Assembly (NCBI RefSeq): GCF_021730395.1
Contig: NC_069364.1
Location: 83,403,972 to 83,467,971, forward strand
Source: Mercenaria mercenaria
Taxonomy: Eukaryota
Reading direction: 5' to 3'
DNA length: 64,000 nucleotides
In this document: piece after piece, positions 20,576-56,264 of the stretch
Numbering within the stretch: the stretch's first letter is position 1
Layout of the letters: the number at the start of each line of letters is the position of its first letter
Notes under the pieces: generated by a model
What the model was told of the DNA's origin: nothing
Seen by the model: the letters and a program-made list of their open reading frames with translations, nothing else
Database searches by the model: none
Program-made: the position numbers and the translations under genes

Positions 20576-21246
20576 ACTCAGGTATGAAAAGATTACACGT
20601 GCATGTCTGACTATATAATTTTTTCCCCTTAAAAGCATACTGTTTCTTGTCATCTTATTATTAGGGCAGTATGGTTTACCATACCCGACACATAAGAAAT
20701 GCTAAAAATCGAAAACAGCTACAACTTCCTCATGAATATGTTTCAAAACGTACAAATACGTGTGTCTAATTTTTTGTGGTAATCCCTGATTTTTAGATAA
20801 CATTTGCAATGACAAATCTTACACTACCACTCATGATTCCTTAGCTGAAGTGCTTATTTCAATTCGAAAACATTTTAGGTAAATATACACTCAACTAGAA
20901 CATAAAGTAGGAATTAAACAAGCATTTGAATGAGATCTTGCATGTTCACTAATTACCAACAGTTCACGAATACTCCAACCCATTATACCTTTATAGGGGC
21001 TAGCCTCGAATGAATATCTGCATATCAAATATCATGTTTATTCAACTTTGTATCTTAAGATTAAGAAGATTAGTAGTTATTTTTCTGTAGTATTGCATCC
21101 ATTTTAACTAACTTTTTAAAAACACTTTTTAGAGTTTTTCTGTTAACATATTTTATAGACTTTGCAATGTGTTTGAATGAATAAATGTTGCCTGAATTTT
21201 CCAGAATCACGATAAGTATCTTTCCTTTTTATCAAAAACTGCTTAC

Positions 21247-22047: not shown

Positions 22048-22319
22048 CCTGAAATGAAATAAAGAACAGAGGTTTACAGTCTGAATGCTCCACTCTTATG
22101 TAATTATACAAAGAACAAGCATCACCCCAGCATTAGAAGTCCCCTGCTGAAGAGAGCATGTCACATTTGCTGCCACTGGAACAAATTAATTAATTAATTA
22201 TATATAGATTTTTTTCATATTTAAATTAAAGTTCAGGACATGCATATTCTGAAAATAACCCATACACTATTCGCCAAGTTTCATGAAAACATCTCTTGTA
22301 CTTTTAAAGTAAATGTAAA

Positions 22320-27714: not shown

Positions 27715-29897
27715 AACAAGAGGGTCATTGACCCTAAAGCGCTCACCTGTGTAATAAGGCTTCAAGTATGTTTATGTAACATTCTGGTACAAGTACAAAG
27801 TTAGATTTCTTCTGCTAGCATAATAAAAGTATATACATGTTACAAACATTTTTGAACTTAGGGCAATAATTTTAACAATTATGGTAGACAGTACAACTCT
27901 GATATCACATGCCAAATATCAAGACTCTAACTATTATTGATTCAGAGAAGAAGATTTTTAAAATTTCTTATATATAAGCCTACAGTTAGTACATGTCACG
28001 CACAGGGGCATGGACATTTTTTACCTTAGGGCAATAATTTGGACAATTATGGTAGAGAGTCACACCCTTATATCACATGCAAATATCAAAGCTCTAGAGA
28101 GAAAGATTTTAAAAGTCTAATAGCTGAAAACCTATTTCTAACCAAAAAGACCCATATGTTCAATGAACTAGAACCATTTGAACAACTTTAAAAGAGGGCT
28201 ACCCAGAGATCATTTGTGTAAAGTTTCATCGAAATCCATTCAGTGGTTTTGGAGGAGATGTGTTGATGAAAAATGACCACGCCCTCTGGCGGTCATGTTT
28301 TTTAACGAATCAAAAAATTTTGAACATTATTTGTAGAAGGTCACACAAGGACCATTAAATTTTGTGTAAAATTATTTCAAAATTGGGCTAACAGTTTTCT
28401 ACAAGAAGTTTCTCCTATATACAAATAGGCAAAAGTGACCACGCCCCCTGGCAGCCATGTTTTTTGACAAATCAGAATAATTTGAACAATCTTGGGAAAG
28501 GGTCACACAAGGACCATTTGTGTAAAAAAATTTTAAAATGGGGCCAACAGTTTCACACAAGAAGATTTTTAATGTTTCCACTATATACATATACAGGGAA
28601 AAGTAACCACGCCCTCTGACACCTATGTTATTTGACAAATCAAAATAATTTGAACAATCTTGGCACACAAGGATCATTTGTGTAAAATTAGTTTAAAATC
28701 GGGCCAGCAGTTTCACACAAGAAGATTTTTAAAATTTCTACTATATACATATAGGGAAAAGTGACTACTAGACAATGCATCATACCAAATATCAAAAGCC
28801 TAGGTCGTATGGTTTCAGACAAGAAGATTTTTTAAGCTTTTTTCTATATAAGTCTATATAAAACTTGGGACCCCCAGGGCAGGGCCTCTTTTCACCCAAA
28901 GGGTACAATTTGAACAAATTTGGATGAGGACCATAAGACAATCCTACAAACCAAATATCAAAGGTCTAAGTGTTGTGGTTTCAGACAAGAAGATTTTTAA
29001 ACTTTTTTTCCTATATAAGTCTATGTAAAACTTGGGACCCCCGGGACAGGGCCACATTTGACCCTAGAGGGATAATTTTAGAACAATCTTGGTAGAGGAC
29101 CACTAGATGATGCTACACACCAAATATCAAAGCCCTAGGCCATGTGGTTTTGTACAAGAAGATTTTCAAAGTTTTCCCTATATAAGTCTATATAAAGCAT
29201 GTGACCCCCGGGGCAGGGCCATATTTGACCCTAGGGGGATAATTTGAATAATCTTGGTAGAGGACCACTAGATGATGCTACCCACCAAATATAAAAGCCC
29301 TAGGCCATGTGGTTTTGTACAAGAAGATTTTCAAAGTTTTCCCTATATAAGTCTATATAAAGCATGTGACCCCCAGGGCAAGGCCATATTTGACCCTAGG
29401 GGGATAATTTGAATAATCTTGGTAGAGGACCACTAGATGATGCTACATACCAAATATCAAAGCCCTAGGCCATGTGGTTTTGTACAACAAGATTTTCAAA
29501 GTTATCCCTATATAAGTCTATATAAACCATGTGACCCCCTGGGTGGGGCCATATTTGACCCTAGGGGGATAATTTGAACAATTTTGGTAGAGGACTACTA
29601 GAAGATGCTATACATCAGATATCAAAGCCCTAGGCCTTGTGGTTTTGGACAAGAAGATTTTTAAAGTTTTTCCTTTCGGTTGCCATGGCAACCAGAGTTC
29701 TGCTTGGAATTCAATTCTTTTAATAAATTTTGTAGAGCTTCACCCAAGGAACATTCCTGTGAAGTTTGGATGAAATTGGCCTAGCGGTTTATGAGGAGAT
29801 GTCGTTTAAAGTAAAAGTTTACGGACAGACAACGGACGACGGACGAAGTGCGATCACAAAAGCTCACCTTGTCACTCCATGACAGGTGAGCTAAAAA
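27715..29897 (+). mobile_element. HINE. 5' CAAGAGGGTCATTGACCCTAAAGCGCTCACCTGTG, arrays of two related monomer families (125-155 bp, 27900-29700), a conserved pre-terminal segment (29690-29820), a microsatellite, and the terminus ..GCGATCACAAAAGCTCACCTTGTCACTCCATGACAGGTGAGCTAAAAAC
   Basis: Both termini are read. Monomers include ..AAGAAGATTTTCAAAGTTTTCCCTATATAAGTCTATATAAA.CATGTGACCCCC.GGGCAGGGCCATATTTGACCCTAGGGGGATAATTTGAA.AATCTTGGTAGAGGACCACTAGATGATGCTACA.ACCAAATATCAAAGCCCTAGGCC.TGTGGTTTTG.ACAAG. Confidence 0.55.
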
Positions 29898-39109: not shown

Positions 39110-40760
39110 CAAGAAGTCAATAGGGGTCAGGAGCAAAAAGTCAAAGAGACACTGATGGTTGGCTGCAATAGGGATCATCTACTTGGCATGTCCAGTCATC
39201 CCGCTAAATTTCAACACTCTTGGCCTAGTGGTTCTCAAGTCACTGTTCAGGCTCCTGTGACCTTGCCCTTTGATCAAGTGACCTCAAAATAAATAGGGGT
39301 CATCTACTCTGCATGTCCAATCATCCTATTAAGTTTCAACATTGTAGGTCAAGTGGTTCTCAAGTTATTTCCAAAAAATGATTTTACATGAACAGGCCAC
39401 TGTGACCTTGACCTTTAATAGACTGACCCCAAAATCAATAGTGGTCATCTACTCTGCATGTTCAATCATCCTATGAAGTTTCAACATTCTGGGTCAAGTG
39501 GTTCTCAAGTTATTGATCGGAACTGGTTATCAATGTTCAGGCCTCTGTGACCTTGACCTTAACGGAGTGACCCCAAAAACAATATGGGTCATTTACTCTG
39601 CATGAACAATCATCCTATGAAGTTTCAACATTCTGGGAAGAGAGATTCTCAAGTTATTGATTGGAAATGGTTTTCCATGTTCAGGCCCCTGTGGCCTTGA
39701 CCTTTAACAGAGTGACCCTAAAATCGTTAGGGGTCATCTACTCTGCATGACCAATCATCCTATGAAGTTTCATCATTCCAGGTCAAGTGGTTCTCAAGTT
39801 ACTGACCGGAAATGGTTTTCAATGTTCAGGCCCGTGACCTTGACCTTTCACAGAGTGACCCCAAAATCGTTAGTGGTCATCTACTCTGCATGACCAATCA
39901 TCCTATTAAGTTTCAACATTCTGGGTCAAGTGGTTCTCAAGTTACTGACCGGAAATGGTTTTCAATGTTCAGGCCCCTGTGACCTTGACCTTTAATGGAG
40001 TGACCCCAAAATCGATAGGGGTCATCTATTTTGCATGTACAATCATCCTATGAAGTTTCAACATTCTGGGTCAAGTGGTTCTCTAGTTATTGATCGGAAA
40101 TGGTTTTCCATGTTCAGGCCCCTGTGACCTTGACCTTTGATGGAGTGACCCCAAAATCAATAGGGGTCATCTACTCTTCATGACCAATCATCCTATGAAG
40201 TTTCAACATTCTGGGTCAAGTGGTTCTCTAGTTATTGATTGGAAATGGTTTTCAATGTTCAGGCCCCTGTGACCTTGACCTTTGACGGAGTGACCCCAAA
40301 ATCAATAGGGGTCATCTGCTCTTCATGACCAATCATCCTATGAAGTTTCAACATTCTGGGTCAAGTGGTTCTCTAGTTATTGATCGGAAATGGTTTTCAA
40401 TGTTCAGGCCCCTGTGACCTTGACCTTTGACGGAGTGACCCCAAAATCAATAGGGGTCATCTACTCTTCATGGCCAATCATCCTATGAAGTTTCAACACT
40501 CTGGGCCAAGTGGTTCTCTAGTTATTGATCGGAAATGGTTTTCAATGTTCAGGCCCCTGTGACCTTGACCTTTGACGGAGTGACCCCAATAACAATAGGG
40601 GTCGTCTACTCCAGCAGCCCTACAACCCTATGAAGTTTGAAGGTTCTAGGTCAAATGGTTCTCCAGTTATTGCTCGGAAATGAAGTGTGACGAACGGACC
40701 GACGGACGGACGGACAGGGCAAAAACAATATGTCTCCTGGAGGAGACATAATAAAACAGG
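39110..40760 (+). mobile_element. Hairpin-terminated array of about eleven copies of a 145-bp CAATAGGGGTCAT family monomer (highly homogeneous at 39800-40600), followed by a (GACGGACGG)n microsatellite (40690-40715) and the terminal hairpin ATATGTCTCCTGGAGGAGACATAAT (40722-40750)
   Basis: CCTGTGACCTTGACC recurs at 40121 and 40266, a period of 145. Copies differ by only a few bases. The microsatellite-plus-hairpin ending matches those at 3826-3887, 18335-18422 and 48320-48405. Confidence 0.6.
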
Positions 40761-42564: not shown

Positions 42565-43322
42565 AATAGTCCTTGGCCGCTCACCTTAAGACCATATGGA
42601 ATTATCTTGCTGCAAGAAAATACAGACCCTACTGCATACACAAGGTTTTTCTTTCATTTGACCAGATGATGTAGTTTTTAACCCAAGATCCCCCATATTC
42701 AAACTTGGCCTAGATTTCATCGAGACAAACATTCTGATCCCATTTCAAGAAGATCCAGTAAAAAAATGCAACCTCTATTGCATACACAAGGGTTTTTTTA
42801 TGATTTGACCAGATGACCTAGTTTTTGACCCAAGATGACCCATATTCAAGCCTTGTGTAGATTTCATCAAGAAAAACATTCTGATCAAACTTCATGAAGA
42901 TCCAGTGAAAATGCATTCCCTATTGCATTCACAAGGTTTTTCTTTTATTTGATCTAGTGACCTTTTTTTTTTCCATCCCAGATAACACATATTCAAATTT
43001 GGCTTAGATTTCACCAAGACAAACATTCTGATCAAATTTCATGAAGGTCCAGTGAAAAATGTAGCCTCTATTGCACACACAAGTGTTTTCTTTGTGTTTG
43101 ACCTAGTGAACTAGTTTTTTACCCCAATTGACCCACATTCAAACATGGCTTAGACTGCACCAAGGCAATCATTCTGATAAAATTTCTCGAAGATCAAGTA
43201 AACAATGCAGCCTCTATTGCATACACAAGCTAAGTGTGAACAAACGAAAGACATCAGATGCCGGTTATCGAGTGACTACAATAACTTATCCGAGCATTGC
43301 TCAGGTGAGCTAAAAACATAAA
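42565..43322 (+). mobile_element. HINE. 5' ..TCCTTGGCCGCTCACCTTAAG, about four copies of a 150-bp monomer, and the terminus ..GAGCATTGCTCAGGTGAGCTAAAAACAT. Unusually, no microsatellite precedes the terminus.
   Basis: Monomers ..CATTCTGATC.AATTTCA.GAAGATCCAGT.AAAAATG.AGCCTCTATTGCA.ACACAAGG... The terminus is conserved. Confidence 0.55.
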
Positions 43323-43619
43323 ATCATCCTCTAAATTTTGCTGGTAGGAGACCAGAAAATTGTCCTTGGTTTATCAATAATAACCTTAGTACTAAGTCTG
43401 GAGTATTTGCAATATTTATCTCTGACCTACAGCTAGAAAAAAATAAACAAAAACCGCAGTCCTCAATAATTATCAGACCTTTTGAAAGAGTAGCTAAGGC
43501 ATTTTCAAGCTATACATGTATATCAAGAAAATTAATTACTTAACTAAATGTGTGTCCATAGGACACAGATGCCCCTGACTCCTGTCATTGTACATAGTAT
43601 GACTCAAGGTTAAACATGG

Positions 43620-43890
43620 GGGCCTCTGTGGCAGAGTGGTTAAGGTCGCTGTCTTCAAATCACTTGCCACTCATCGGTGTGTTTCAAGCCTCACTCTGGG
43701 TGTTGAATTCTTCATTTGAGGAAGCCATCCAGCTGGCGGAAGGTCCGTGGTTCTCCTCAGGTGCCTGCTCATGATAAAATAATGCACGGAGAGGCACCTG
43801 GGGTCTTCCTCCACCATTAAAGCCGGAAAGTCACCATATAACCTATCATGTGTTGGTGCGACGTTGAATCCAACAAGGTTAAACATTTTT
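43620..43890. other. Possible SINE or tRNA-related repeat. Its head GGGGGCCTCTGTGGCAGAGTGGTTAAGGTCGCTG has D-arm-like GTGGCAGAGTGGTTAAGG.
   Basis: A tRNA-like D-arm motif is visible, but no full cloverleaf could be drawn by eye and no tail or target-site duplication was identified. Confidence 0.2.
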
Positions 43891-44789
43891 TCAAGATGTA
43901 TGAAATATAAACTTTTAAGAACTTACTGTGTATTTTTCAGTGAAGACCATAACTCTGACCTAGCTGAATGAAATCCTAAAGAGAACACACAGTCCAAAAC
44001 TAAACAATCCTCTAATGTTTTATGACTCTAGGTAAAGTACATTTTGACATACATGCAGCACATACAACTTCAAACGTAACATCAGTTGTGCAACTTCACA
44101 TGCTATATAACAATCCTCTAATGTTTTATGACTCTTAACTCAAACTTTTATCCCATTTATGCATATTTTTTTTGACAATCACTCTGGTGTGACTGGTAAA
44201 ATTCCAGAACAGAACGACATGTGCACAACTTCATATGCTGAATAATATTCCTAGGTGTTTCATGACCCTAGGTCATATACTTTTTGAGATATGTCTGACA
44301 CAACTTTTATGTCTTTTTATGCATATTCTTTTCCTATGTCAACGGCCATAACTCTGGTCCGAGTGGTTTATCTAGCTGAATAATATTTCTGTAATTTTTA
44401 CATGCCACACAAATTTAGGCCCTTTTTATGCTTTTTTTAATAAGTCAAGGGCCGTAACACTGGTCTGACTGTGTGAGATCCAAATTTAAACCCCTGGTGG
44501 ACTGCTTCTAATACTGAATTTCAATCATGTGAGGATTGACGACTCTGTGGCAAATACTTCTTGAGATATATGAACAACATTTTCCATAACCTTGTAATAA
44601 ATGCTTTTCAATTTTGAACTGAAAAACTAGTAAAAAACAGCTCATTCTTAATAATTAAGTCAATCCTGTTGAGTGCTTACACTTCATTCAGTTGTCTTAA
44701 AACACAGAGTAAACAGCTTTAAATACAGCAGTATATACATGTATTTCCAATAACGTTTCACAATTATATCCCTTTATATCATGTCATAC

Positions 44790-44953
44790 CTTAGTATTAA
44801 TACTATCTAACAGCTCATTTTGTTTTTCAAGTTCTTCTCCCATATCCACTGCCATACATCTAAGGGAAGCAAGCATATCAGATTGTTCCTCCTTTTTTTC
44901 TGCTACAGCTGATCTGGCTATCCTTCTCTTTAATACAGGTTCATCTCCAGGAC
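44790..44953 (-). CDS. Coding exon of 164 nt (entry phase 1) encoding a SNAP25-type Qc-SNARE motif: ..GPGDEPVLKRRIARSAVAEKKEEQSDMLASLRCMAVDMGEELEKQNELLDSINTK
   Basis: Acceptor ..TATTTGCCAAG| and donor ACTAAG|GTATGAC. SLRCMAVDMGEELEKQNELLDSI matches the SNAP-25 C-terminal SNARE [23 protein letters not shown] at 10 of 23 positions with identical spacing (established family knowledge). It is phase-compatible with the upstream UBL exon. Confidence 0.45.
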
Positions 44954-45340
44954 CTTGGCAAATACAGAAGTTGATATTTCAGAATGTGCCACGACGATAA
45001 AATTATCCTCTTTTCCACTAAACGAAAATGTTTACTCAACCAGAATCCTTAAAAGTACTTGCAATACAGATATGTGTGGTGACCAAAATACTGTGATGAC
45101 CAGAATACTAAGTCAATATCTTTAGGATGAATAAAATTCAAATACATTAAAACATGATCTTTTGTGACATTTCAGTATAAAAAAAAACACATTTAACTAC
45201 GAACATACTTCATGTGGAAATAGAGACAAAACTGTATAATGTAATGCCAATCCAGCTTTGTGTGACCACCAGAATGGTTTGCCTCTGGGATATATTTTAT
45301 AGTTTCATTAAATATTACAGAATGAGCCAAGTCACCATAC

Positions 45341-45486
45341 CTCCCCTCAGTCTTAACACAAGATGCAACATTGACTCATGCTGGATGTTATAGTCCTGCA
45401 GTGATCTACCATCTTCTAACTGCTTTCCAGCAAATATCAATCTCTGTTGATCTGGTGGTATTCCTTCTTTGTCTTGAATCAGTGCC
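45341..45486 (-). CDS. Coding exon encoding the C-terminal two-thirds of a ubiquitin-like domain, [49 protein letters not shown]. It ends in phase 1 after RLRGG.
   Basis: Acceptor CATTTTGCAG| and donor GGGGAG|GTATGG. It is about 90% identical to the invariant ubiquitin segment [48 protein letters not shown], with 4 substitutions, so it is a ubiquitin-like domain rather than canonical ubiquitin. It overlaps the listed ORF 45315-45551. Confidence 0.6.
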
Positions 45487-46406
45487 TGCAAAATGCAATC
45501 ATTGAAGTCACATGGCATTGTGGTCATATGGCAACTTTCCAGCTTAAACATTTGAGGAAAATCCCAGGGGACCCTTTACAGGGCCGCTGGGTAAAACCAA
45601 AAGCCTTTCACAAACAAACAGTATAGTTTCTTCAACAAAAATATCAGTGGTAACCTCAACCATTCAGCCTTATATAATTCATCAAAAACAAACACATAAC
45701 TATAACTATGAACCAATATAAATTCTTTCAACCTAGTACCATTAATGCTCCCAGTGAGTCTATTGTCACCTTTTATTTTTTGTGTTTACCTTAGTAAGAT
45801 GCTATCATAATTATTTTTAAATAAAAAAAACATTTTTCATTTACCTATAAAACCAATGAAATGTTATAGCAAATGTACAAACACAGTCATGATAACAAAT
45901 ATATTTAAGGCCAATCCACCTATTATTAGCTTGCAAACAAAAGCTTTAGCAAAATTTTCTGAGATGAAAAAGGGACATAAATTTGCATGAGTATTGTTAA
46001 CTAGAGCTATGAAACTTGCCATATGAGGTCATATTGAAATGCCGGGAGACATACATGCAAAACTTTCACATAATTTCTATATTAAAAGGGGACATGATTT
46101 TGATAAAATAAAAAGAGTTATGTAGCTTGTCCTATGAGTTTATCTCATAAGGCCAAACACAAATGTTGAAAAAATTTGACCTAGTGGTTTCTGACAAACC
46201 TGTTTACAACCGAGTAAAACTTATTATGCAGACGCCAACACCAACAAAAGGGTGGCAACAAGACTGTAATATTTGAAAAGTTTAGTTGCACTAAAAAATT
46301 GGTAACACTTTAATTTAACATGATAACTAACACTATATATACTATCATAAAATGTGTAGTTAACATTTGGCTATATCAACAGATTTCAAATCAGAAAAAT
46401 CAATAC

Positions 46407-46510
46407 CTTTACATCAGCTATAGTACTGCAGGCATCCAAATCCATACTAACTGTCTTCCCCGTCAATGTTTTGACAAATAAGTGAGAAGTCTTCTGCGTT
46501 TTTGGATTCC
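46407..46510 (-). CDS. Coding exon encoding the N-terminal third of the same ubiquitin-like domain, ..[34 protein letters not shown]. It has no initiator Met, so the domain is internal to a larger protein.
   Basis: Acceptor CTATTTAG| and donor [37 protein letters not shown] aligns to ubiquitin [25 protein letters not shown]. The intron position between VK and A(L/K)IQDKEG is phase 0 on both sides. Confidence 0.5.
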
Positions 46511-46619: not shown

Positions 46620-47560
46620 AAGACTTACTGACTAGCTCAAGGTCAAATTTCATTTCCGTACACAACACTGTGCATGTGGTCCAAATTCAAAAGCTGTAGC
46701 TTGAGATGTGAAAGTAGGTCACTAGATCAATTTCAAGGACAAAGTTCTTTGTACACAAAACTATGCATGTGCATCAAGTTTGAAGGCTGTAGTTTGAGAA
46801 ATTTGAAAGTAGGTCACTAGGTCAATCTTAAGGTCACAGTTTATTTTGGTACAAAAAACTATGCAAGTGGTCCAAATTTGAAGGCTGTAGCTTGAGAAAT
46901 GTGAAAGTAGGTCACTAGGTCAATGTCAAAGTTTGTTTCGGTACACAATCCTATGCATGTGGTCTAAATTTGAAGCCTGTAGCTACAGAAATGTGAAAGT
47001 AGGTCACTAGGTCAATCTTAAGATCAAAGTTCATTTCAGTACACAAAACTAAGCAAGTGGTCCAAATTTGAAGGCTGTAGCTCGAGAAATGTGAAAGTAG
47101 GTCACTAGGTCAAAATCAAGGTCAAATTTTATTTCGGAACACAGAACTATGCATGTGGTCCAAATTTGAAGCCTGTACCTTCAAAAATGTAAAAGTAGGT
47201 CACTAGGTCAATGTAAAGGTCAAAGTTTGTTCGGTACACAAAACTATGCAAGTGGTCCTAATTTGAATTTGAAGGCTGTAGCTCGATAAATGTGAAAGTA
47301 GGTCACTAGGTCAAAATCAATGTCAAATTTTTTTGACACAGAACTATGCATGTGGTCCAAATTTGAAGCCTGTACCTTCAAACATGTGAAAGTAGGTCAC
47401 TAGGTCAATGTAAAGGTCAAAGTTTGTTTCGGTACAAAAAACTAAGCATGTGGTCCAAATTTGAAGGCTGTAGCTTGAGAAATGTGAAAGTAGGTCACTA
47501 GGTCAAAATCAAGGTCAAATTTCATTTCGGAACACAAAGGTCAACTCATGTCAAGGTTCA
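46620..47560 (+). repeat. Tandem array of about eight copies of a 121-bp monomer (..AAAGTAGGTCACTAGGTCAAT.T.AAGGTCAAAGTT..TTTCGGTACACAAAACTATGCA.GTGGTCCAAATTTGAAGGCTGTAGCT.GAGAAATGTGA..)
   Basis: Direct repeats are read. They are diverged at the 5' side and homogeneous toward 47500. Confidence 0.65.
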
Positions 47561-48405
47561 TCTTGCCTCTCAAAACCATACATGTGGTCCAAATTTGAAT
47601 ATTGTAGGTTACTGACAAGAAGATTTTAAAAGCTTTTCCCTATATAAGTCTATATGAACCATGTGACCCCCGGGGCGGGGCCATATTTGACCCTAGGGGG
47701 ATAATTTGACCAAACTTGGTAGAGAACCACTAGATGATGCTACATAACAAATATCAAAGCCCTAGGTTTTGTGGTTTGGGCAAGAAGATATTCAAAGTTT
47801 TTCCCTATATAAGTCTATGTAAACCATGTGACCCCCGGGACGGGGCCATATTTGACCCTAGGGGGATAATTTGAAAAATCTTAGTAGAAGACCACTAGAT
47901 GATGTCACATACAAAATATCAAAGCTCTAGGCCCTATGGTTTTGAACAAGAGGTTTTTCAAAGTTTTTCCCTATATAAGTCTATATAAACCATGTGACCC
48001 CCGGGGCGGGGCCATATTAGACCCCGGGGAAATAATTTGAATCATCTTGGTAGAGGACCACTAGATGATGCTTCATACCAAATATCAAAGCTCTAGGCTC
48101 TGTGGTTTTGGACAAGAAGATTTTCAAAGTTTTTCCCTATATAAATCTATGTAAATTATAGAAATAAACAAAGGGCCATAACTCACTAAAAAATTGTTGA
48201 ACCAGTCTGATTTTCAGAGGGACACAACTAGAGTACCAATACATCATTCTGACAAAGTTTGGTCAAAATGCCCCTGGTAGTGTCTGAGGAGATGCGATAA
48301 CGAGAAATTGTTAACGGAAGGACGGACGGACGGACAGACGGAAGGACGTCGGACCACAGACGCAGAGTGATTTGAATAGCCCACCATCTGATGATGGTGG
48401 GCTAA
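47560..48405 (+). mobile_element. Hairpin-terminated element 3' portion. About four copies of the 155-bp monomer (ATATTTGACCCTAGGGGGATAATTTGA family), a unique pre-terminal segment, a (GGACGGAC)n microsatellite (48318-48352), and the terminal hairpin TAGCCCACCATCTGATGATGGTGGGCTA (48378-48405)
   Basis: Read directly. The hairpin has a perfect 12-bp stem. Confidence 0.5.
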
Positions 48406-48729: not shown

Positions 48730-49890
48730 ATGCCGCGTGGGCGTGTTAGACAGCGAGGCGGCAGGGCTAGGGCAGGAAGGCCAGCCAGGGCAAACAGAAA
48801 TGCCGACGGCCAGCAGAATGAAGCAGGCGGCCAGCAGAATGAGGCAGAACGAGGCAATAACCATCCAAACACCCGCGGGCAGAAACGAAGAGCCGATGAC
48901 CTTGAGCACGCTGAAAGGACACCGGCACGTGGTCTGGCAGAGCCATCAGATATAGATGACGGAGGCAATATACTGTTACAGGAAAATGCCGGTGGGTCTA
49001 ATTTTATTGATTTTGAACAGGTTTTTCGTAGTTCAGGTCTTATGTCTTGTAACGGTAATGAGACTAGTTCAAGGTCAAATAGTACTTCTAATATAGGATT
49101 TGACAATGGACACGACAAAAATGTACCTCTGCCACCCCGTCAGATCAATGAAACGTGTCAGAATGCCTCCTTTAATCATAACTTTCCATCCGTTCGTTTA
49201 TCAAATGATGATTTGACTGCACATGTACCATCATCGTTAAAACAACAAATCTGTCGTGGAGAATACGTTAATCTGGCCTTACTCTTAAAAGGGGCTATCG
49301 AACTGTCTGAATTTTGTAAGGGTAGTGTTTTCAAACTCTCGGCGGATGGCCACATTGAGTCATCTCATAAAGAGTGCAAAGATAAAATTACATCTAGAGA
49401 AAAATGGACCAATGCATTTATAATTTATGCTTCCATTTACCTTCCGACACATAGTGATAAAGTTCACGAGTTACTTCACTATATGTTTAACATATGGGAC
49501 TGTGCAATGCGCCAAGGGGGCAACGGGTGGAGAATTTATGATGAACAATTTCCCCTTTGCCAGGCTATATGTCCGTCCCCATGGTCACAAACAAATAACG
49601 AACTTTGGTGGCGATGTATACAGGTCAAAGATAATCAGTCTGCAAATCAGTCAGTTATAAATCCTCTCAGGTACACGTGCCATGATTTTAACAGAGGTAG
49701 TTGTTTCTGGTCAAACTGTAAATATCCTCATATATGCGCAAAATGTTTTGCACCACATCCTGAGGTCACCTGTTCCCAGTCCGGTTCTTCAGGTCAAGGT
49801 CAAATGACAAGCCCTCAGTTTAATTTTCGTGGCAGGGGCTTTCGCCGACCGTTCAGAGGACCTAAACGAGGTCAACCAAGAAAACAGTAA
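48730..49890 (+). CDS. ORF1, a putative Gag-like protein of 386 aa with a basic N-terminus and a Cys/His cluster (CHDFNRGSCFWSNCKYPHICAKCFAPH)
   Basis: It is the first ORF of the element and overlaps ORF2 in a different frame, as is typical of DIRS-order elements. It was not recognised by specific motif beyond the zinc-knuckle-like Cys/His spacing. Confidence 0.5.
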   Translation: MPRGRVRQRGGRARAGRPARANRNADGQQNEAGGQQNEAERGNNHPNTRGQKRRADDLEHAERTPARGLAEPSDIDDGGNILLQENAGGSNFIDFEQVFRSSGLMSCNGNETSSRSNSTSNIGFDNGHDKNVPLPPRQINETCQNASFNHNFPSVRLSNDDLTAHVPSSLKQQICRGEYVNLALLLKGAIELSEFCKGSVFKLSADGHIESSHKECKDKITSREKWTNAFIIYASIYLPTHSDKVHELLHYMFNIWDCAMRQGGNGWRIYDEQFPLCQAICPSPWSQTNNELWWRCIQVKDNQSANQSVINPLRYTCHDFNRGSCFWSNCKYPHICAKCFAPHPEVTCSQSGSSGQGQMTSPQFNFRGRGFRRPFRGPKRGQPRKQ

Positions 49891-51586
49891 AACTGTAAGC
49901 TTTAACTCAACAAACAGCCCATCAGTTCAACAGCTCACCAATTTTGATATTTCTAATTTGGCAAAATCACCAGTAAAAGTGGAAGCCTTGAAACAATATG
50001 CACTCTTGTACGAAACCAGTGAATCTAAGTTTTTACTAGACGGTTTTACGAAAGGATTTTCCATTCAGTACACAGGTCCTCGCTTACCACGAGATTCAAA
50101 TAATTTGCGTTCTGTTACACTCAGTCCGGAAATAATAAAATCTCAAATTAATAAAGAGTTAGAAGCAGGAAGAATAGCTGGTCCATTTGTTCATCGCCCA
50201 TTTCCTAATTTAATAGTTTCACCGATAGGCTTAGTTCCTAAAAAAACACCGGGAGAATTCCGAATGATTCATCATTTGTCACATCCCCCTGGCGGTTCAA
50301 TTAATGACTTTATTGACCCAGATTTATGCTCTGTCCAATACACTAGCTTCGACAAGGCAGTTAAGTTAGTTCAAGATCTAGGACGAAATTGTAAACTTTT
50401 CAAGTCGGACATTAAAAGTGCATATCGTTTAATACCGATTCACCCCGATGATTTTGAATTACTGGGATTTTGCTATGATGGTCATTTTTATTTTGACAAA
50501 GCGCTCCCGTTTGGGGTATCAATAAGCTGCATAACTTTTGAAAGGTTTGCTAGGTTTCTTGAATTTTGTGTTAAATTAAAACTACAGTCAGATAGCTTGA
50601 TACACTATTTAGATGACTTTCTAGGGGGAGACAAATCTGTTGAATCATGTACTCGTGCTTTAGAAATTTTTAAAAGTACAATGTCTGAACTTGGTGTGCC
50701 TTTAGCGCTCGACAAAACTGAAGGCCCTACAGAGGTTTTGATCTTTTTAGGCCTAGAACTAGATTCAAACCATATGACGGTAAAAATTCCTATAGCAAAA
50801 ATGCAGGAGGTTATACAAAAAATCGAAGAAATTCTTTCACGAAATAAAACAACATTAAAGAAAATGCAGTCTCTCATTGGGTCATTAAACTTTTGTTGCA
50901 GAGCCATAGTAGTGGGTAGGCCTTTTATACGCCGACTAATAAACTCAGTTTGTGGTCTCACGAAGCCTTTTCATCGCATTCGAATTAAAAAAGAGATACG
51001 GCTTGATTTGGCAATGTGGTTAGTTTTTCTAAAAAAATTTAACGGTATCTCTGTTTTTCATGACCGTTATTGGATCACGAACACCGATACAGAGTTATAC
51101 ACTGATAGTGCGGGTGGCAAGGGATTAGGCTTTGGTATATACTTCAAAGGCCATTGGTGTTCGGCGAAGTGGCCGGACACGTGGCACACGTGCGGCATCA
51201 CGTCAGATATAACAGTACTGGAATTGTTCCCGATTTTGGTAGCTATATTCATTTGGGGAAAGGATCTGATGAATAAAAAAATAAGATTTAACAGCGATAA
51301 TATGGCTGTGGTTCACATTCTTAACAAATTATCCTCTAAATCAGAACGAGTTATGTGCATTGTCAGGATATTAACGTTGAGATGTTTTAACTTGAATATT
51401 TTAATCAAAGCCTCTCATGTCCCGGGTTGTAGCAATGAAATCTGCAACGCTTTATCTCGCTTTCAGTTGAACAAGTTCAGAGAATTAGCTCCAGACGCAG
51501 ACGTCAGCCCCCATTCAATACCAACTTTTCTATGGGACATCTTCGATCTAGAGCTAGACAACTGCTTCTGTCAGGGATTTCAATGA
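49829..51586 (+). CDS. ORF2, reverse transcriptase plus RNase H, 585 aa
   Basis: RT motifs IVSPIGLVPKK, FRMIHHLSHP, FKSDIKSAYRLIPIHPDDFELLGF, ALPFG and HYLDDFLGG are present. The RNase H region has YTDSAGGKGLGFG..ELFPILVA..NSDNMAVVHIL..ASHVPGCSNEICNALSR. Confidence 0.85.
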   Translation: MAGAFADRSEDLNEVNQENSKTVSFNSTNSPSVQQLTNFDISNLAKSPVKVEALKQYALLYETSESKFLLDGFTKGFSIQYTGPRLPRDSNNLRSVTLSPEIIKSQINKELEAGRIAGPFVHRPFPNLIVSPIGLVPKKTPGEFRMIHHLSHPPGGSINDFIDPDLCSVQYTSFDKAVKLVQDLGRNCKLFKSDIKSAYRLIPIHPDDFELLGFCYDGHFYFDKALPFGVSISCITFERFARFLEFCVKLKLQSDSLIHYLDDFLGGDKSVESCTRALEIFKSTMSELGVPLALDKTEGPTEVLIFLGLELDSNHMTVKIPIAKMQEVIQKIEEILSRNKTTLKKMQSLIGSLNFCCRAIVVGRPFIRRLINSVCGLTKPFHRIRIKKEIRLDLAMWLVFLKKFNGISVFHDRYWITNTDTELYTDSAGGKGLGFGIYFKGHWCSAKWPDTWHTCGITSDITVLELFPILVAIFIWGKDLMNKKIRFNSDNMAVVHILNKLSSKSERVMCIVRILTLRCFNLNILIKASHVPGCSNEICNALSRFQLNKFRELAPDADVSPHSIPTFLWDIFDLELDNCFCQGFQ

Positions 51587-52423
51587 ATTCAAGGCTAACA
51601 TATAATACTGCCTTTCGGGCATTTGAAAATTTTAGGCGGTTATACAATCTTTCAGACAGTTGGCCTATACCAGAACAACAAATCACTTTATTTATGGCTT
51701 ATTGTTTCGAAAAAGGGTTGTCACCCAAGACAATCACGAGGTATATAGCTGGGCTAAATTATTTTCACAAACTTTCTGGATATTATGATATAACCCAGGT
51801 TTTCATTGTTAATAAATTACTAGAGGGTTGCCATAGGAACCGTATCACACATGATAACAGAGCCCCACTAACTCTGCCTATTTTGACATCTATTTGCAGA
51901 GTTCTAAGAGAAATATGCTTCAATGCGTATGAAACAAAACTGTTTACTTCGCTCTTTACTTTAGCATACTTTGGATTGTTCAGGGTTAGCGAATTAGTTG
52001 TCTCCTTTAGGGGACAATTTGATGGGCCCATTAAACGATCAGATTTGTTCGTGATTGATAACCAATATCTTACAATTCAACTTCGGCATAGTAAAACAAA
52101 CCAAAGGGGAAAACCGACTAAAACTACCCAGAGAATCTGGGCCTGTCTGTGCAGTGCAAGCATTAACAGATTTCTTGGCCGTAAGACCAAAAAATGAAGG
52201 AATATTATTTTGTCATCAAGAAGGCACCCCAGTTACCAGAACTCAATTTTCAGCCATTCTGTATAAATGTCTGAGTAAAAATCAAATTACTGGTACATTT
52301 AAATCGCATAGCTTTAGAATTGGTCGGGCTACAGACCTGGCAACTAGGGGTTATTCAGCGAGTGTAATTATGAAACTTGGTAGATGGAAATCTAATTGCT
52401 ATAAAGTATACATCCGAACGTAA
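51532..52423 (+). CDS. ORF3, tyrosine recombinase, split over two frames (51532-52197 and 52055-52423) by an apparent one-nucleotide frameshift near 52105-52120
   Basis: YR hallmarks are LFTLAYFGLFRVSELV, IQLRHSKTNQRG, then after the frame change ..SGPVCAVQALTDFL..HSFRIGRATDLA..GRWKSNCYKVYIR, which gives the R..H..R..Y catalytic signature. The join falls in the GGGGAAAACC run. Confidence 0.75.
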
Positions 52424-52584
52424 TTCTACAGTAAAGAGATGTTTTCCCACTCTTAACTGTATCAGCGGACAACATTTTTTAAAAGTGCATTGAAGTCAGT
52501 TCTTCCTGGTAGTTATTCCGTTTAAAGCGAATTTTCCACATTTAAGGTATTCTTGTCAATTCCATCTAATAACTATTTGTAGAT

Positions 52585-53139
52585 GTGTGGGTCCTGGGAG
52601 ATTCAATACCGTTCTGGGCTGGTAAACGAGCAGCAGACACCGGTAAACCCAACCTTTCGTTACCCGATATAACTATAGCTTGGTGGGGAATAAGCGGACT
52701 TCGATGGACATCATTTCGCCATTCAGTACAGACTCAAGTATTACTGTCATCGCCACCAAGGGCTATCATCTTACATTTAGGTGGTAACGATTTGACAAGT
52801 TTATCTTCTATCGAGCTAAGGGAGTTAATAGAGACAGAAGTGAAATATCTACGCGATGCCTTCCCCGAGACAATTATCATTTGGGTAGATATTTTACCAA
52901 GGAGGGTCTGGAGGGGGGCCTGTAATCTCAAAGCTATTGACGTCAAACGCAAACGAATAAATAGATCGGGCCGGATTATTACAAGTCGGTCTGGCAGGAG
53001 TGATATAGTGAGCCCAGATATTGATACGGCTACTAATTTTTTCAGATCTGACGGGGTCCATTTAAATGAGGTGGGGTTGGAGTTTTATCTGTACTATTTG
53101 AAATCTGCCATAATAAAAAATCTCTGTGCGTCTCAATAA
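52585..53139 (+). CDS. ORF4, an SGNH/GDSL-family hydrolase-like protein of 184 aa
   Basis: Block I VLGDSI (GDS), block III LHLGGNDL (GGND) and block V DGVHLN (DxxH) occur in the correct order and spacing. Its position after the YR ORF matches the hydrolase-like ORF reported in some Ngaro elements. Confidence 0.65.
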   Translation: MWVLGDSIPFWAGKRAADTGKPNLSLPDITIAWWGISGLRWTSFRHSVQTQVLLSSPPRAIILHLGGNDLTSLSSIELRELIETEVKYLRDAFPETIIIWVDILPRRVWRGACNLKAIDVKRKRINRSGRIITSRSGRSDIVSPDIDTATNFFRSDGVHLNEVGLEFYLYYLKSAIIKNLCASQ

Positions 53140-53171: not shown

Positions 53172-54110
53172 GCGGTAAAATTTTTATTGGCCGGAAGGTG
53201 ACCAGGCGTTGCAGTTTCTATGAAGTAAATTTAACAAGTTATTGTTATTTACAATTTCCAATTTCGCTTACTTCGGAATATGGGCGTGACTTCTCTCCTC
53301 GATGGCATTCTATTTTGCGTTCAAGAGGAGACATAGCCGTCCGTATTCGGATTTTTCTATCTTATTTCGCAGGTCACTACTTTATGTAAGCTGTTATTGT
53401 TACTCTGAGTCACCAGGTTATTTCAATGGTTGTCAACTGGACTGTTGCTTCTGGTTACTTGTTTACTTATTGTTGTCGACCCGAATGTTGCTTCGGGTCA
53501 CTAAGTAGTGGTAAACTCGAATGTTGCTTCGGGTTTGTTTGTAGTCTGTCGTTGACCTGAATGTTGCTTCGGGTCACTAGGTCTGGCCCATGTAGTTTTG
53601 GTAAGGCCTAGTCGACGTGTTTGCTGCCAGTAACGCATTACAGGTTCTACCGGCATACCTCGTATCGAGCTGGTAGTGTGATTATGGGTCCTTTGCTTTC
53701 AAGGTTGGTACCGATTCACGGTACGGTCAACTTGGAAGCTGGGGTCTATGACTGCACGATCAGTGGGACTCCTTTGGTAATGCGACACGTAGCAATTGAT
53801 GCCATTAGTAATATTTTCAAAGGTGACTCGGCGACCGGGATCCTTTTGGCAATTTCACTTGTAATGTTTGGCACGCTTGCAGGTCCCTTCCGGTCGATGA
53901 GCTAGCTACCAAATTTGAGCAGCCGACACAACCAAACTTATTAATTTGAAATGATATGAATATACATGTAATTCGTAAGCAATATTTCAAGGTTTTATTA
54001 TCACGTACCTATATCTATTTGAATATATTGTCGGTACAGATTGGTGACATGTTTAATAAATTTAGAGAAGGCTGTATGTATTGTTTTTTATTTCGAGTAA
54101 TATCAAATAA
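53172..54110 (+). repeat. Ngaro-like element repeat B1 (B2 copy at 55000-55935). It contains three tandem GAATGTTGCTTCGGGT hairpin-forming motifs (53470-53585).
   Basis: Roughly 939-bp direct repeat, about 99% identical. It is noncoding, and the ORFs listed inside it are repeat artefacts. Confidence 0.8.
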
Positions 54111-56264
54111 GATAAATTATTTTCAATTAAAAATAATTTGATTTATTTATTCAAGAAATACTTGTTATGCTCGTTGCCATGGTCACACGGTTATCTTTCG
54201 GTCTTTTCTTATAACTGGTTCCCGTCTTTCTGACTGATACGAATTACACATAATTACTGGGCCAAGAACAATCTTAATAACGGCTTATAAAAGCAAAAAA
54301 CACGTGCAGCCTTTCTCACTTACGTCGTAGTCTACCTGTAAAGAACATCGAACTTACAACTTTTCCCCGCCCGCCTCAGCCCGCAAAAGCTACCATATTT
54401 TTGATTAATAAGATTGTTTCACCTATACTATACCATGTGATAACTATTTTTGGTCAGGAATTGCTGTTGGTTGTATATATTTTCAGGATACCATATTTCA
54501 AATTTCTGTTGTATCAATGTTGAATTCTGACGGTGTCACCAACTCATGTACCCAGAGCCATAAGACGAATGCAATTCAGATGTGAAAACAGTATATTGTT
54601 ATGAAGACTGTGATTTTATCAAATAAACGGTTACAGGCGCCTTAGCGGTACATGGAATTAATGCTGATGTGAACAGTCATTTGTAATATACTTATTTAGT
54701 GTGAACACTGATTCATTGGAAGTGATTTGTCAGTTAATGATCATAGTGCTCGGGTATTTGTTTGTTCTTATTACACATTTTATGTGCATTTATATCGTGT
54801 GACATTTTGTGCTAGCTTAATGGGACAATTATTTGACATTACATGTATACTAAGCAGCATAATTCTGGACATTTAGTGTATTTACTTCATGAAGACGTAA
54901 TTCTATGCCTAAATAATATAAATGTATGTATATAAAGAGTCGGACAGTCTATCTTAAGGTTTCATTCATATATGTCGCTCTATTTATATGTTGTATATTG
55001 CGGTAAAATTTTTATTGGCCGGAAGGTGACCAGGCGTTGCAGTTTCTATGAAGTAAATTTAACAAGTTATTGTTATTTACAATTTCAAATTTCGCTTACT
55101 TCGGAATATGGGCGTGACTTCTCTCCTCGATGGCATTCTATTTTGCGTTCAAGAGGAGACATAGCCGTCCGTATTCGGATTTTTCTATCTTATTTCGCAG
55201 GTCACTACTTTATGTAAGCTGTTATTGTTACTCTGAGTCACCAGGTTATTTCAATGGTTGTCAACTGGACTGTTGCTTCCGGTTACTTGTTTACTTATTG
55301 TTGTCGACCCGAATGTTGCTTCGGGTCACTAAGTAGTGGTAAACTCGAATGTTGCTTCGGGTTTGTTTGTAGTCTGTCGTTGACCTGAATGTTGCTTCGG
55401 GTCACTAGGTCTGGCCCATGTAGTTTTGGTAAGGCCTAGTCGACGTGTTTGCTGCCAGTAACGCATTACAGGTTCTACCGGCATACCTCGTATCGAGCTG
55501 GTAGTGTGATTATGGGTCCTTTGCTTTCAAGGTTGGTACCGATTCGCGGTACGGTCAACTTGGAAGCTGGGGTCTATGATTGCACGATCAGTGGGACTCC
55601 TTTGGTAATGCGACACGTAGCAATTGATGCCATTAGTAATATTTTCAAAGGTGACTCGGCGACCGGGATCCTTTTGGCAATTTCACTTGTAATGTTTGGC
55701 ACGCTTGGTCCCTTCCGGTCGATGAGCTAGCTACCAAATTTGAGCGGCCGACACAACCAAACTTATTAATTTGAAATGATATGAATATACATGTAATTCG
55801 TAAGCAATATTTCAAGGTTTTATTATCACGTACCTATATCTATTTGAATATATTGTCGGTACAGATTGGTGACATGTTTAATAAATTTAGAGAAGGCTGT
55901 ATGTATTGTTTTTTATTTCGAGTAATATCAAATAATGCTTCATTTACACAGAAAGATATCTAGCCATATCACAAAGGTATTTCTGTTTTTTGCTCTTGCA
56001 GCCCCTAAAAGGTGCTTAAGTGTCCCAAATTTGAATAAATTTGAGAGAGGACCTTACAATGATGCTACAGACAAAATTTGACGAAGATCCATCAAGCGGT
56101 TCATGAGAAGAAGTGGTTTAAAGGTTTTTTCTAATTTTAGCCCTAGCGGCACCTTAAAGGGGCCAAGTGCCCTCATTTAAACAATTTTTGGGAAAGCATC
56201 TTACAAAATTATTCTACAGACAAAGTTTCATGAAGATCCATTAAGCGGTTCATGGCCAGACAAA

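What the first reader, a model, noticed from the sequence alone, without database searches (positions are those of the whole stretch)
44790..46510. Ubiquitin-like domain spliced in frame onto a SNAP25-type SNARE motif (candidate UBL-SNARE fusion gene)
Three minus-strand exons have consensus splice sites and compatible phases. Joined, they encode ..[29 protein letters not shown] | [49 protein letters not shown] | PGDEPVLKRR..SDMLASLRCMAVDMGEELEKQNELLDSINTK.

The first two exons form a full ubiquitin fold. It is about 75-90% identical to ubiquitin, and the intron falls at the VK|A position. The third exon matches the C-terminal Qc-SNARE of SNAP-25 at 10 of 23 residues with identical layer spacing.

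I do not recognise a described UBL-SNARE domain combination. The C-terminal GG of the UBL is retained directly before the SNARE region, which raises the possibility of a cleavable or regulatory ubiquitin-like module on a t-SNARE.
Basis: partly seen in the sequence, partly recalled or inferred. Interest (0 to 1): 0.7.

Follow-up and report, generated by a model that had tools for sequence, protein, structure and literature searches.

The report
Ubiquitin-like exons beside orphan SNARE exon
Two exons encoding a diverged ubiquitin copy lie just upstream of a lone exon copied from a SNAP-25-type membrane-fusion gene and can be spliced to it in frame, but that exon carries only half a SNARE motif and nothing available shows the chimera is expressed or conserved.

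Summary
Three minus-strand exons (46510-46407, 45485-45341, 44953-44790) have AG/GT boundaries and compatible phases. Joined, they read as a ubiquitin-like domain, then RLRGG|PGDEP, then a SNAP-25-like helix.

- **Ubiquitin-like domain:** Pfam ubiquitin E=1e-26. It is 57/76 identical to ubiquitin (13/27 in exon 1, 44/49 in exon 2).
- **Exon 3:** against 177,635 PDB sequences, the top 20 hits are all the C-terminal SNARE motif of SNAP-25 (best E=2.6e-4). The zero-layer Gln is present and all eight core positions from -5 to +2 are conserved.

The "UBL-SNARE t-SNARE" reading is only partly supported.
- Only 8 of 16 layers are present, and no Pfam SNARE model passes its cutoff.
- The window holds no Qb motif, no cysteine linker and no convincing last exon.
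- The spliced junction is Gly76-Pro, which deubiquitinases barely cleave, so a cleavable module is unlikely.
- No protein resembling exon 3 turned up in 1.84 billion representatives, or in viral or metagenome DNA. The source genome's relatives seem absent from these databases, and no transcript data were available.

Best reading: a lineage-restricted exon-shuffled chimera in a 2.2-3.3 kb single-copy island between satellite arrays. It may well be spliced, but it is not a working SNARE.

The parts
46407..46510 (-). Exon 1: encodes NPKTQKTS plus ubiquitin positions 1-27 ([27 protein letters not shown]). It starts in phase 2 after a tttag| acceptor. Alternatively, an in-frame ATG at 46538 could make it a first coding exon (MFFKLIYYLG...).
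   Evidence: tblastn against ubiquitin residues 2-27 gives E=1e-5. 13/27 residues are identical, and the replacements are mostly conservative.
45486..46406 (-). Intron 1 (921 nt), single copy in the window, at ubiquitin K27|A28.
45341..45485 (-). Exon 2: ubiquitin positions 28-76 (ALIQDKEG...LVLRLRGG), 44/49 identical to ubiquitin. It ends one base into the Gly76 codon (G|GT).
   Evidence: The donor is at the 98.8th percentile and the acceptor at the 94.7th.
45315..45340 (-). Read-through tail if intron 2 is retained: GG-MVTWLIL, stop codon at 45317-45315.
   Evidence: No AATAAA or ATTAAA lies between this stop and E3.
44954..45340 (-). Putative intron 2 (387 nt), phase 1 on both sides.
44790..44953 (-). 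Exon 3: PGDEPVLKRRIARSAVAEKKEEQSD plus SNAP-25-type Qc SNARE layers -5 to +2 (MLASLRCMAVDMGEELEKQNELLDSINTK, zero layer Gln). It ends in phase 0 at AAG|gtatga.
   Evidence: E=5.5e-5 against SNAP-25 residues 135-184. (the top 20 PDB hits are all SNAP-25 SN2). (5 of 8 core positions identical, the other 3 are Ile to Leu). (one long predicted helix, pLDDT up to 85 in the core).
44784..44789 (-). Val codon plus TGA directly after E3. If the E3 donor is not used, the protein ends ...INTKV*.
44528..44590 (-). Weak candidate last exon (VMENVVHISQEVFATESSILT*). Val, Asn and Ile sit where SNAP-25 has layers +3 to +5. Not supported statistically.
   Evidence: the alignment to SNAP-25 and SNAP-29 extends 10 residues without a gap and gains 3-4 bits. 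Against this, the acceptor is at the 22nd percentile and the candidate ranks only 3rd of 25 AG sites in the proximal 350 nt.
44436..44441 (-). ATTAAA, the only poly(A)-type hexamer downstream of E3 before the repeats. A candidate 3' end, about 350 nt after the ...KV* stop.
46631..47538 (.). 98-bp tandem array bounding the single-copy island on the upstream side, 120 nt from E1.
42617..43296 (.). 147-bp tandem array bounding the island on the downstream side. A decayed repeat at 44003-44436 lies closer in.

Best explanation
This is a lineage-restricted chimeric locus made by exon shuffling. It combines a two-exon ubiquitin-derived domain with a single exon copied from a SNAP-25/23-type gene, the exon that encodes the N-terminal half of the second (Qc) SNARE motif. 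They sit together in a 2.2-3.3 kb single-copy island between satellite arrays.

If the locus is transcribed, the strong E2 donor and the in-phase E3 acceptor would most likely be joined. The product would be [N-terminal extension]-UBL-RLRGG-Pro-linker-half SNARE helix. It would probably end at the Val-stop just past E3 and be polyadenylated near 44440.

Shown: the exons, their homologies, their phases, the Gly76-Pro junction and the missing SNARE parts.

Inferred:
- The ubiquitin-like domain stays attached, because Gly-Pro junctions are not processed.
- The tail can at best enter the N-terminal half of a SNARE bundle with syntaxin or VAMP. It cannot drive C-terminal zippering, like SNAP-25 truncated by botulinum toxin E at residue 180.
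- The product would therefore be a decoy or adaptor carrying a ubiquitin-like tag, or a short-lived protein of the ubiquitin-fusion-degradation type. It would not be a fusogenic t-SNARE.
For: - **Homologies:** (ubiquitin; SNAP-25 SN2).
- **E3 needs an upstream exon:** its open frame starts at 44978 and has no Met until inside the SNARE core. E2 is the nearest same-strand exon, 387 nt away and in the matching phase.
- **Splice sites:** the E2 and E3 sites are at the 88th-99th percentile.
- **3' end:** there is no poly(A) hexamer between the ubiquitin read-through stop and E3; the next one after E3 is at 44441.
- **Contiguity:** the three exons share one unique island, so mis-assembly across repeats does not explain the E2-E3 adjacency.
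- **Protein-level constraint on the ubiquitin-like domain:** replacements are conservative (mean BLOSUM62 +0.47 against a null of -0.24, P=0.03). They are also very unevenly spread between the halves (Fisher P=2e-4), unlike uniform decay.
- **Protein-level constraint on E3:** all eight heptad core positions and the zero-layer Gln are kept at only 45% overall identity, in a 64-codon open frame (P about 0.01).
- **Gly-Pro ubiquitin fusions are uncleaved and act as UFD degrons:** PMC9703124.
- **Lineage-specific ubiquitin fusions to non-ribosomal partners exist:** PMC6332867.
Against: - There is no transcript evidence of any kind.
- No homologue of E3 was found: word-index search, HMMER over 1.84 billion representatives, viral and metagenome DNA. 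The spliced junction is also absent from metagenome and metatranscriptome contigs.
- Other candidate exons of the window found no relatives either, so this absence says little in either direction.
- The E2 donor GT comes for free from a GGT Gly76 codon followed by ATG.
- The E3 acceptor is AAG, with a disfavoured A at -3.
- The E1 acceptor is weak (64th percentile), and neither a start codon in good context nor an upstream exon was found.
- UBL-GG plus a 7-residue tail is by itself a normal ubiquitin-like precursor layout.
- The SNARE part is truncated at both ends.
Confidence: 0.45

Rival explanations
1. These are two unrelated pieces that merely lie side by side. A ubiquitin-like gene or pseudogene ends at the in-frame stop after GG-MVTWLIL (45315). 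E3 is a stranded relic exon of a dispersed SNAP-25-family duplicate, lying in the 3' UTR or in intergenic DNA and never joined to the ubiquitin-like exons.
For: - The read-through stop lies 8 codons after GG, a typical ubiquitin-like precursor tail.
- No other SNAP-25 exon is present in 64 kb, as expected for a stray fragment.
- The neighbourhood is full of repeats and a retroelement, so it is prone to fragment shuffling.
- The donor GT at Gly76 is a by-product of the GGT-ATG sequence.
- No homologue carrying this architecture was found.
Against: - E3 keeps a 64-codon open frame, both exon-boundary dinucleotides and every heptad core residue, while being only 38-45% identical to any SNAP-25 and with no closer relative detected. 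That is hard to reconcile with long neutral decay.
- There is no poly(A) hexamer between the ubiquitin stop and E3.
- The phases match, although the chance of that is only 1 in 3.
Confidence: 0.33
2. This is a functional UBL-Qc-SNARE gene. Its remaining exons (start codon upstream, layers +3 to +8 downstream) were missed, because they are too diverged, lie outside the window, or correspond to the weak candidate at 44590-44528.
For: - Adding the candidate exon extends the ungapped alignment to SNAP-25 and SNAP-29 by 10 residues and adds 3-4 bits. Val, Asn and Ile fall at layers +3 to +5, and the stop comes after 21 codons against 22 in SNAP-25.
- The E3 donor is strong, at the 97.8th percentile.
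- The ubiquitin-like domain and the E3 core look constrained.
Against: - The candidate exon is not significant: 3rd of 25 AG sites, acceptor at the 22nd percentile, and Glu, Thr and Ser at layers +6 to +8.
- No SNAP-25-like C-terminal pattern occurs anywhere on either strand.
- Layers -6 and -7 are not hydrophobic.
- No Pfam SNARE model passes its cutoff.
- No orthologue exists in 1.84 billion representatives.
- There is no membrane anchor.
Confidence: 0.1
3. The three exons are 3' or alternative exons of a larger minus-strand gene. Its other exons would lie upstream, beyond the tandem array and the inserted retroelement, for example the open segments at 61.4-58.4 kb. In that case the ubiquitin-like domain is an internal domain.
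For: - E1 starts at an acceptor in phase 2 and the ubiquitin-like domain lacks Met1.
- The only in-frame ATG (46538) sits inside the AT-rich acceptor tract, with T at -3.
- Exon-like open segments lie on the same strand upstream.
Against: - At least 12 kb of satellite plus a retroelement on the opposite strand lie in between.
- Those segments have no Pfam match and no homologue.
- The E1 acceptor scores poorly.
Confidence: 0.12

Closest known systems
Ubiquitin C-terminal extension (fusion) genes: UBA52 and RPS27A, and lineage-specific fusions such as ubiquitin-actin and ubiquitin-P1 in Bigelowiella (PMC6332867)
   Same: A ubiquitin-derived module with an intact LRLRGG sits directly in front of an unrelated polypeptide in one reading frame. 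The partner was acquired in a single lineage.
   Different: The module has no Met1 and is 25% diverged (K29L, K63H). It is split by an intron at K27|A28. The junction is Gly-Pro, which is not processed, instead of a cleavable residue. The partner is a fragment of a gene rather than a whole protein. Expression is not shown.
SNAP-25 family Qbc-SNAREs (SNAP-25, -23, -29), second SNARE motif
   Same: E3 aligns without gaps to SNAP-25 residues 146-184. It has the zero-layer Gln, identical or Ile-to-Leu core residues at layers -5 to +2, and the RR-[VI] pre-motif. SNAP-25 scores 24 bits, against 14 for SNAP-29 and 14 for syntaxin 8.
   Different: There is no Qb motif, no palmitoylated Cys linker, and no layers +3 to +8. 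Layers -6 and -7 are polar. No curated SNARE profile passes its cutoff.
Non-cleavable ubiquitin fusions: substrates of the ubiquitin-fusion-degradation pathway (Ub-Pro-X, Ub-G76V-X) and engineered Ub-synaptobrevin-2 and Ub-syntaxin-1 reporters (PMC9703124)
   Same: An N-terminal ubiquitin moiety is joined through a junction that deubiquitinases do not cut, and Lys48 is retained. The engineered cases also carry SNARE sequences.
   Different: Those are laboratory constructs built with true ubiquitin. Here Lys29, one of the lysines used in that pathway, is Leu. Degradation of this product has not been tested.
SNAP-25 truncated by botulinum neurotoxin E (residues 1-180)
   Same: The Qc helix ends at about the same layer (+2). 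General SNARE knowledge predicts binding without fusion competence.
   Different: The toxin product keeps the whole Qb motif, the linker and the membrane anchor. This comparison comes from memory of the literature and was not tested here.

Membership tests
Ubiquitin family domain (PF00240) | Profile match over the whole beta-grasp domain, above the curated cutoff | tested here: met
   92.9 bits against a cutoff of 25.4, E=1.1e-26, profile positions 1-72 of 72.
Ubiquitin family domain (PF00240) | Functional residues of ubiquitin proper: the Leu8-Ile44-Val70 patch, His68, the LRLRGG tail and all seven lysines | tested here: inconclusive
   alignment. The patch, His68, the tail, and Lys6, 11, 27, 33 and 48 are kept. 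Lys29 is Leu and Lys63 is His. Overall identity is 75%, so this is a ubiquitin-like domain, not ubiquitin.
Ubiquitin precursor / C-terminal extension genes | Ubiquitin starts at the initiator Met | tested here: not met
   Positions 1-2 are Ser-His. The frame continues upstream to an acceptor or to an ATG 20 codons earlier.
Ubiquitin precursor / C-terminal extension genes | The Gly76-X junction is cleavable by deubiquitinases (X is not Pro) | tested here: not met
   the spliced junction is GG|P. PMC9703124 reports that Ub-Pro fusions are not cleaved. Cleavage of this product was not assayed.
Ubiquitin precursor / C-terminal extension genes | The fusion is present in mRNA | not testable with these tools
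   No transcript data. Junction search in metagenome and metatranscriptome contigs was negative. Exact products are absent from the protein collection.
SNAP-25 family (Qbc-SNARE) | Significant sequence similarity to the Qc motif, with a zero-layer Gln | tested here: met
   the top 20 of 177,635 PDB sequences are all SNAP-25 SN2, best E=2.6e-4. E=5.5e-5. Gln at the Q174 position.
SNAP-25 family (Qbc-SNARE) | A complete 16-layer heptad (-7 to +8) | tested here: not met
   Layers -5 to +2 only. Positions -6 and -7 are Gln and Lys (sequence). No exon for +3 to +8 was found.
SNAP-25 family (Qbc-SNARE) | Two SNARE motifs (Qb plus Qc) joined by a linker, with a Cys cluster in SNAP-25 and SNAP-23 | tested here: not met
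   tblastn of SNAP-25 and SNAP-29 against both strands of the window at E up to 50 finds only E3.
SNAP-25 family (Qbc-SNARE) | A curated SNARE profile above its gathering score | tested here: not met
   only V-SNARE_C, at 14.1 bits against a cutoff of 27.1 (E=0.06).
SNAP-25 family (Qbc-SNARE) | Exon boundaries shared with SNAP-25 genes | not tested
   The alignment stops exactly at the E3 end (SNAP-25 K184). I could not retrieve SNAP-25 exon coordinates.

The most novel reading that the evidence does not exclude
The chimera is expressed as a stable, non-cleavable ubiquitin-like domain carrying half of a SNAP-25 Qc helix. It works as a natural decoy or adaptor. It would enter the N-terminal half of syntaxin/VAMP bundles, block full zippering, and present a ubiquitin-like tag (Ile44 patch and Lys48 intact) to proteasome or ubiquitin-binding receptors. 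That would link SNARE assembly to turnover in one mollusc lineage.
Probability: 0.12. Interest if true: 0.65.

Novelty: new variant of a known kind. Interest (0 to 1): 0.35.

Why it matters
If the chimera is expressed, it would be a natural counterpart of the engineered non-cleavable ubiquitin-SNARE fusions. It would also be a clean example of a new gene born by exon shuffling between two of the most conserved eukaryotic protein families. The ubiquitin half then shows what happens once a ubiquitin copy escapes concerted evolution. If it is not expressed, it is an ordinary by-product of duplication in a repeat-rich genome. It would also warn that in-phase exons with consensus splice sites can arise partly for free, here because a GGT-ATG sequence makes a donor.

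Tried and rejected
- **Whole joined product against the protein database.** Only polyubiquitins were listed (304 bits or more), so a single-domain relative could not have appeared. Uninformative.
- **E3 alone.** No candidates from the word-index search. Zero hits at E<=1e-3 from HMMER over 1.84 billion representatives. Nothing confirmed in viral or metagenome DNA.
- **Identifying the source genome.** I tried to find its annotation through neighbouring exon-like ORFs and through exact look-ups of seven ORFs or isoform products. Nothing was found, so absence from the databases cannot be read as "not annotated as a gene".
- **Spliced-junction 27-mer in metagenome and metatranscriptome contigs.** None.
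- **Search for the missing SNARE parts.** I used tblastn with SNAP-25, -23 and -29, a heptad scan after every AG and motif regexes on both strands. The only lead was the weak candidate at 44590-44528, which fails the rank test and has a poor acceptor.
- **An MAVDIGKE match at 44349-44326.** Rejected as chance.
- **The idea that the 22 codons upstream of E2 (MFKLESCH...) are a decayed ubiquitin N-terminus from an intronless copy.** Rejected. E2 is 90% identical while that stretch is unrecognisable and 5 residues short, and E1 supplies a proper N-terminal half.
- **Transposon capture.** No terminal inverted or direct repeats bracket the island.
- **snoRNA, tRNA or other RNA genes in the introns as a sign of transcription.** None.
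- **AlphaFold without an alignment.** Low confidence overall (pLDDT 55). It shows only that E3 is one long helix.
- **Literature searches for a UBL-SNARE architecture or for SNAP-25 exon coordinates.** Nothing.
Full report
**What is in the sequence.** On the minus strand there are three open segments bounded by AG and GT.
- E1, 46510-46407: tttag|G ... AAG|gtattg.
- E2, 45485-45341: tttgcag|G ... GAG|gtatgg.
- E3, 44953-44790: gccaag|G ... AAG|gtatga.

Joined, they give one 137-codon frame without a stop: [34 protein letters not shown] | ALIQDKEG...HLVLRLRGG | PGDEPVLKRRIARSAVAEKKEEQSDMLASLRCMAVDMGEELEKQNELLDSINTK. If intron 2 is retained, the frame ends GG-MVTWLIL*, with the stop at 45315. 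If the E3 donor is not used, it ends ...INTKV*.

**The ubiquitin-like part.** Pfam ubiquitin matches the whole profile at E=1.1e-26. Identity to ubiquitin is 57/76 and very uneven: 13/27 in E1 against 44/49 in E2 (Fisher P=2e-4). The 17 internal replacements are mostly conservative (I3L, I13V, T14S, L15M, E16D, V17L, E18D and others). Their mean BLOSUM62 score is +0.47, against -0.24 +/- 0.37 for random single-base replacements (P=0.03).

The Leu8/Ile44/Val70 patch, His68, Lys48 and LRLRGG are kept. Lys29 is Leu and Lys63 is His. Positions 1-2 are Ser-His, so there is no initiator Met. This is a diverged but apparently foldable ubiquitin copy with an intron at K27|A28, not a ubiquitin precursor.

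The 22 in-frame codons directly upstream of E2 are not a relic of the ubiquitin N-terminus. E1 supplies that half.

**The SNARE-like part.** tblastn of human SNAP-25 against the whole window finds E3 at E=5.5e-5. The alignment covers residues 135-184 at 38% identity with one 4-residue gap, and ends at the exon end. phmmer of E3 against all 177,635 distinct PDB sequences returns SNAP-25 C-terminal SNARE chains, squid included, as the top 20 hits (best E=2.6e-4). SNAP-29 and syntaxin 8 follow far behind.

In the ungapped core (SNAP-25 residues 156-184), 13/29 residues are identical. All eight heptad core positions are identical or Ile to Leu, and the zero layer is Gln. E3 therefore derives from a SNAP-25/23-type Qc exon.

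It is not a SNARE motif in the full sense.
- Only layers -5 to +2 are present.
- The positions of layers -6 and -7 are Gln and Lys.
- Pfam gives only V-SNARE_C, at 14.1 bits against a cutoff of 27.1.

AlphaFold on the single sequence is poor overall (pLDDT 55). It does model E3 as one helix, with pLDDT up to 85 in the core.

**What is missing.** tblastn with SNAP-25, SNAP-29 and the SNAP-23 C-terminus at E up to 50 finds no Qb motif, no linker and no last exon on either strand of the 64 kb. A heptad scan after every AG downstream and motif searches find no exon for layers +3 to +8.

The one lead is 44590-44528 (VMENVVHISQEVFATESSILT*). It extends the ungapped alignment to SNAP-25 and SNAP-29 by ten residues and adds 3-4 bits. 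However, it ranks only 3rd of 25 AG sites in the proximal 350 nt. Its acceptor is at the 22nd percentile, and it has Glu, Thr and Ser at layers +6 to +8. I treat it as unsupported.

**Is the join plausible?** I scored the sites with a generic metazoan splice matrix recalled from memory, ranked against every GT or AG on this strand of the window.

| Site | Percentile |
|---|---|
| E2 donor | 98.8 |
| E3 donor | 97.8 |
| E2 acceptor | 94.7 |
| E3 acceptor | 87.6 |
| E1 donor | 87.5 |
| E1 acceptor | 64.2 |

Points in favour of the join:
- The E3 open frame starts at 44978 and has no Met until inside the SNARE core. E3 can only be coding if spliced to an upstream exon, and E2 is the nearest, 387 nt away and in phase.
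- A 64-codon open frame has P of about 0.01 at this composition.
- No AATAAA or ATTAAA lies between the ubiquitin read-through stop and E3. After E3 the first is at 44441. A transcript through E2 would therefore probably include E3.

Points against:
- The E2 donor GT arises automatically from a GGT Gly76 codon followed by ATG.
- The E3 acceptor is AAG.
- Matching phase is a 1-in-3 event.
- GG plus a short tail is a normal ubiquitin-like precursor end.

**Context.** The segment 43297-46630 is single copy within the window. It is flanked by tandem arrays at 42617-43296 and 46631-47538. A decayed repeat at 44003-44436 narrows the clean island to about 2.2 kb.

Upstream on the opposite strand lies a tyrosine-recombinase retroelement with reverse transcriptase, integrase and GDSL-like hydrolase domains. 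No terminal repeats bracket the island. No RNA genes lie in the introns.

**Comparative evidence: none obtainable.**
- The joined product retrieved only polyubiquitins.
- E3 alone found nothing by word index, nothing at E<=1e-3 in 1.84 billion representatives, and nothing in viral or metagenome DNA.
- The spliced junction is absent from metagenome contigs.
- Exact products are not in the protein collection.
- Other exon-like ORFs of the window also found nothing. The source genome and its close relatives therefore seem absent from these resources.

The negative results show there is no widely conserved, annotated UBL-SNARE family with an E3-like motif. An orthologue above roughly 45 bits would have been seen. 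They do not tell us whether this locus is a gene.

**Mechanism.** The spliced junction is Gly76-Pro. Ubiquitin-Pro fusions are the exception that deubiquitinases leave uncut, and the attached ubiquitin then acts as a degron of the ubiquitin-fusion-degradation pathway (PMC9703124).

The tail covers the half of the Qc helix where SNARE assembly nucleates, but lacks the membrane-proximal layers. By analogy with SNAP-25 cut by botulinum toxin E (general knowledge, not tested here), it could bind partners but not drive fusion. It also has no membrane anchor. All of this paragraph is inference.

**Comparison with known things.** The closest known kind is the lineage-specific ubiquitin fusion gene, such as ubiquitin-actin and ubiquitin-P1 in Bigelowiella, alongside the universal UBA52 and RPS27A (PMC6332867). 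This locus differs in four ways: an internal rather than Met1 ubiquitin, a non-cleavable junction, a partner that is only a gene fragment, and no evidence of expression.

It fails the membership tests for a SNAP-25-family SNARE (two motifs, 16 layers, curated profile). It passes only the test of local homology to the Qc motif.

| Reading | Confidence |
|---|---|
| Lineage-restricted exon-shuffled chimera, probably spliced if transcribed, encoding a ubiquitin-like domain with a SNAP-25-derived half helix and not a t-SNARE | 0.45 |
| Adjacent but unjoined ubiquitin-like gene and relic exon | 0.33 |
| Exons of a larger upstream gene | 0.12 |
| True UBL-Qc-SNARE with exons I missed | 0.10 |

Interest is 0.35. 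The locus is a new variant of a known kind, and transcript data from the source species would settle it.

Noticed in passing
window 48730-53139 (+), with repeated blocks about 53466-53905 and 55294-55730: A tyrosine-recombinase retrotransposon of Ngaro/DIRS type. It has a gag-like ORF, reverse transcriptase (PF00078), Phage_int_SAM_1 plus Phage_integrase, and a GDSL-like hydrolase ORF. Two near-identical downstream blocks look like its terminal repeats.
   Followed up: partly
window 1-799, 10649-11378, 14372-15057, 23293-26191, 39240-40682, 61642-63375, among others: One 145-bp satellite family recurs in many arrays of up to 20 copies, on both sides of the locus. 165-bp arrays (28763-29674, 47614-48155) and a 98-bp array (46637-47538) are also present. 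Well over a quarter of the window appears to be tandem repeat.
   Followed up: no
window 61452-58403 (-): Exon-like open segments on the same strand upstream of the ubiquitin-like exons, for example IVKMNTKDYIIELSKQYTIVTQFTSFVAIEKRDK. The TSFVA[IV]E motif reminded me of VWA5A-type proteins. However, Pfam gave nothing relevant and no homologue was found.
   Followed up: partly
window 21143-22111 (-): A 322-aa acidic ORF preceded by a good acceptor. It contains SEESEEEMGFSLFEYD, which resembles the C-terminal tail of ribosomal P proteins. It has no Pfam match and no database relative.
   Followed up: partly
window 6349-7795 (-): Two long proline-rich ORFs (repeated GAPPPPPPP blocks, FH1/WH2-like composition) with internal 30- and 78-bp repeats. 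No Pfam match.
   Followed up: partly
window 43536-43922: A segment with overlapping open frames on both strands (for example ...VAEWLRSLSSNHLP... on the + strand). It looks like a SINE-type or other dispersed element commonly mis-called as protein in invertebrate genomes. This rests on memory only.
   Followed up: no
window 45315-45551 (-): E2 is embedded in a 78-codon ATG-initiated ORF (MFKLESCH...[12 protein letters not shown]). An ORF-based gene caller would report this as a truncated ubiquitin-like protein, hiding the two-exon structure.
   Followed up: yes
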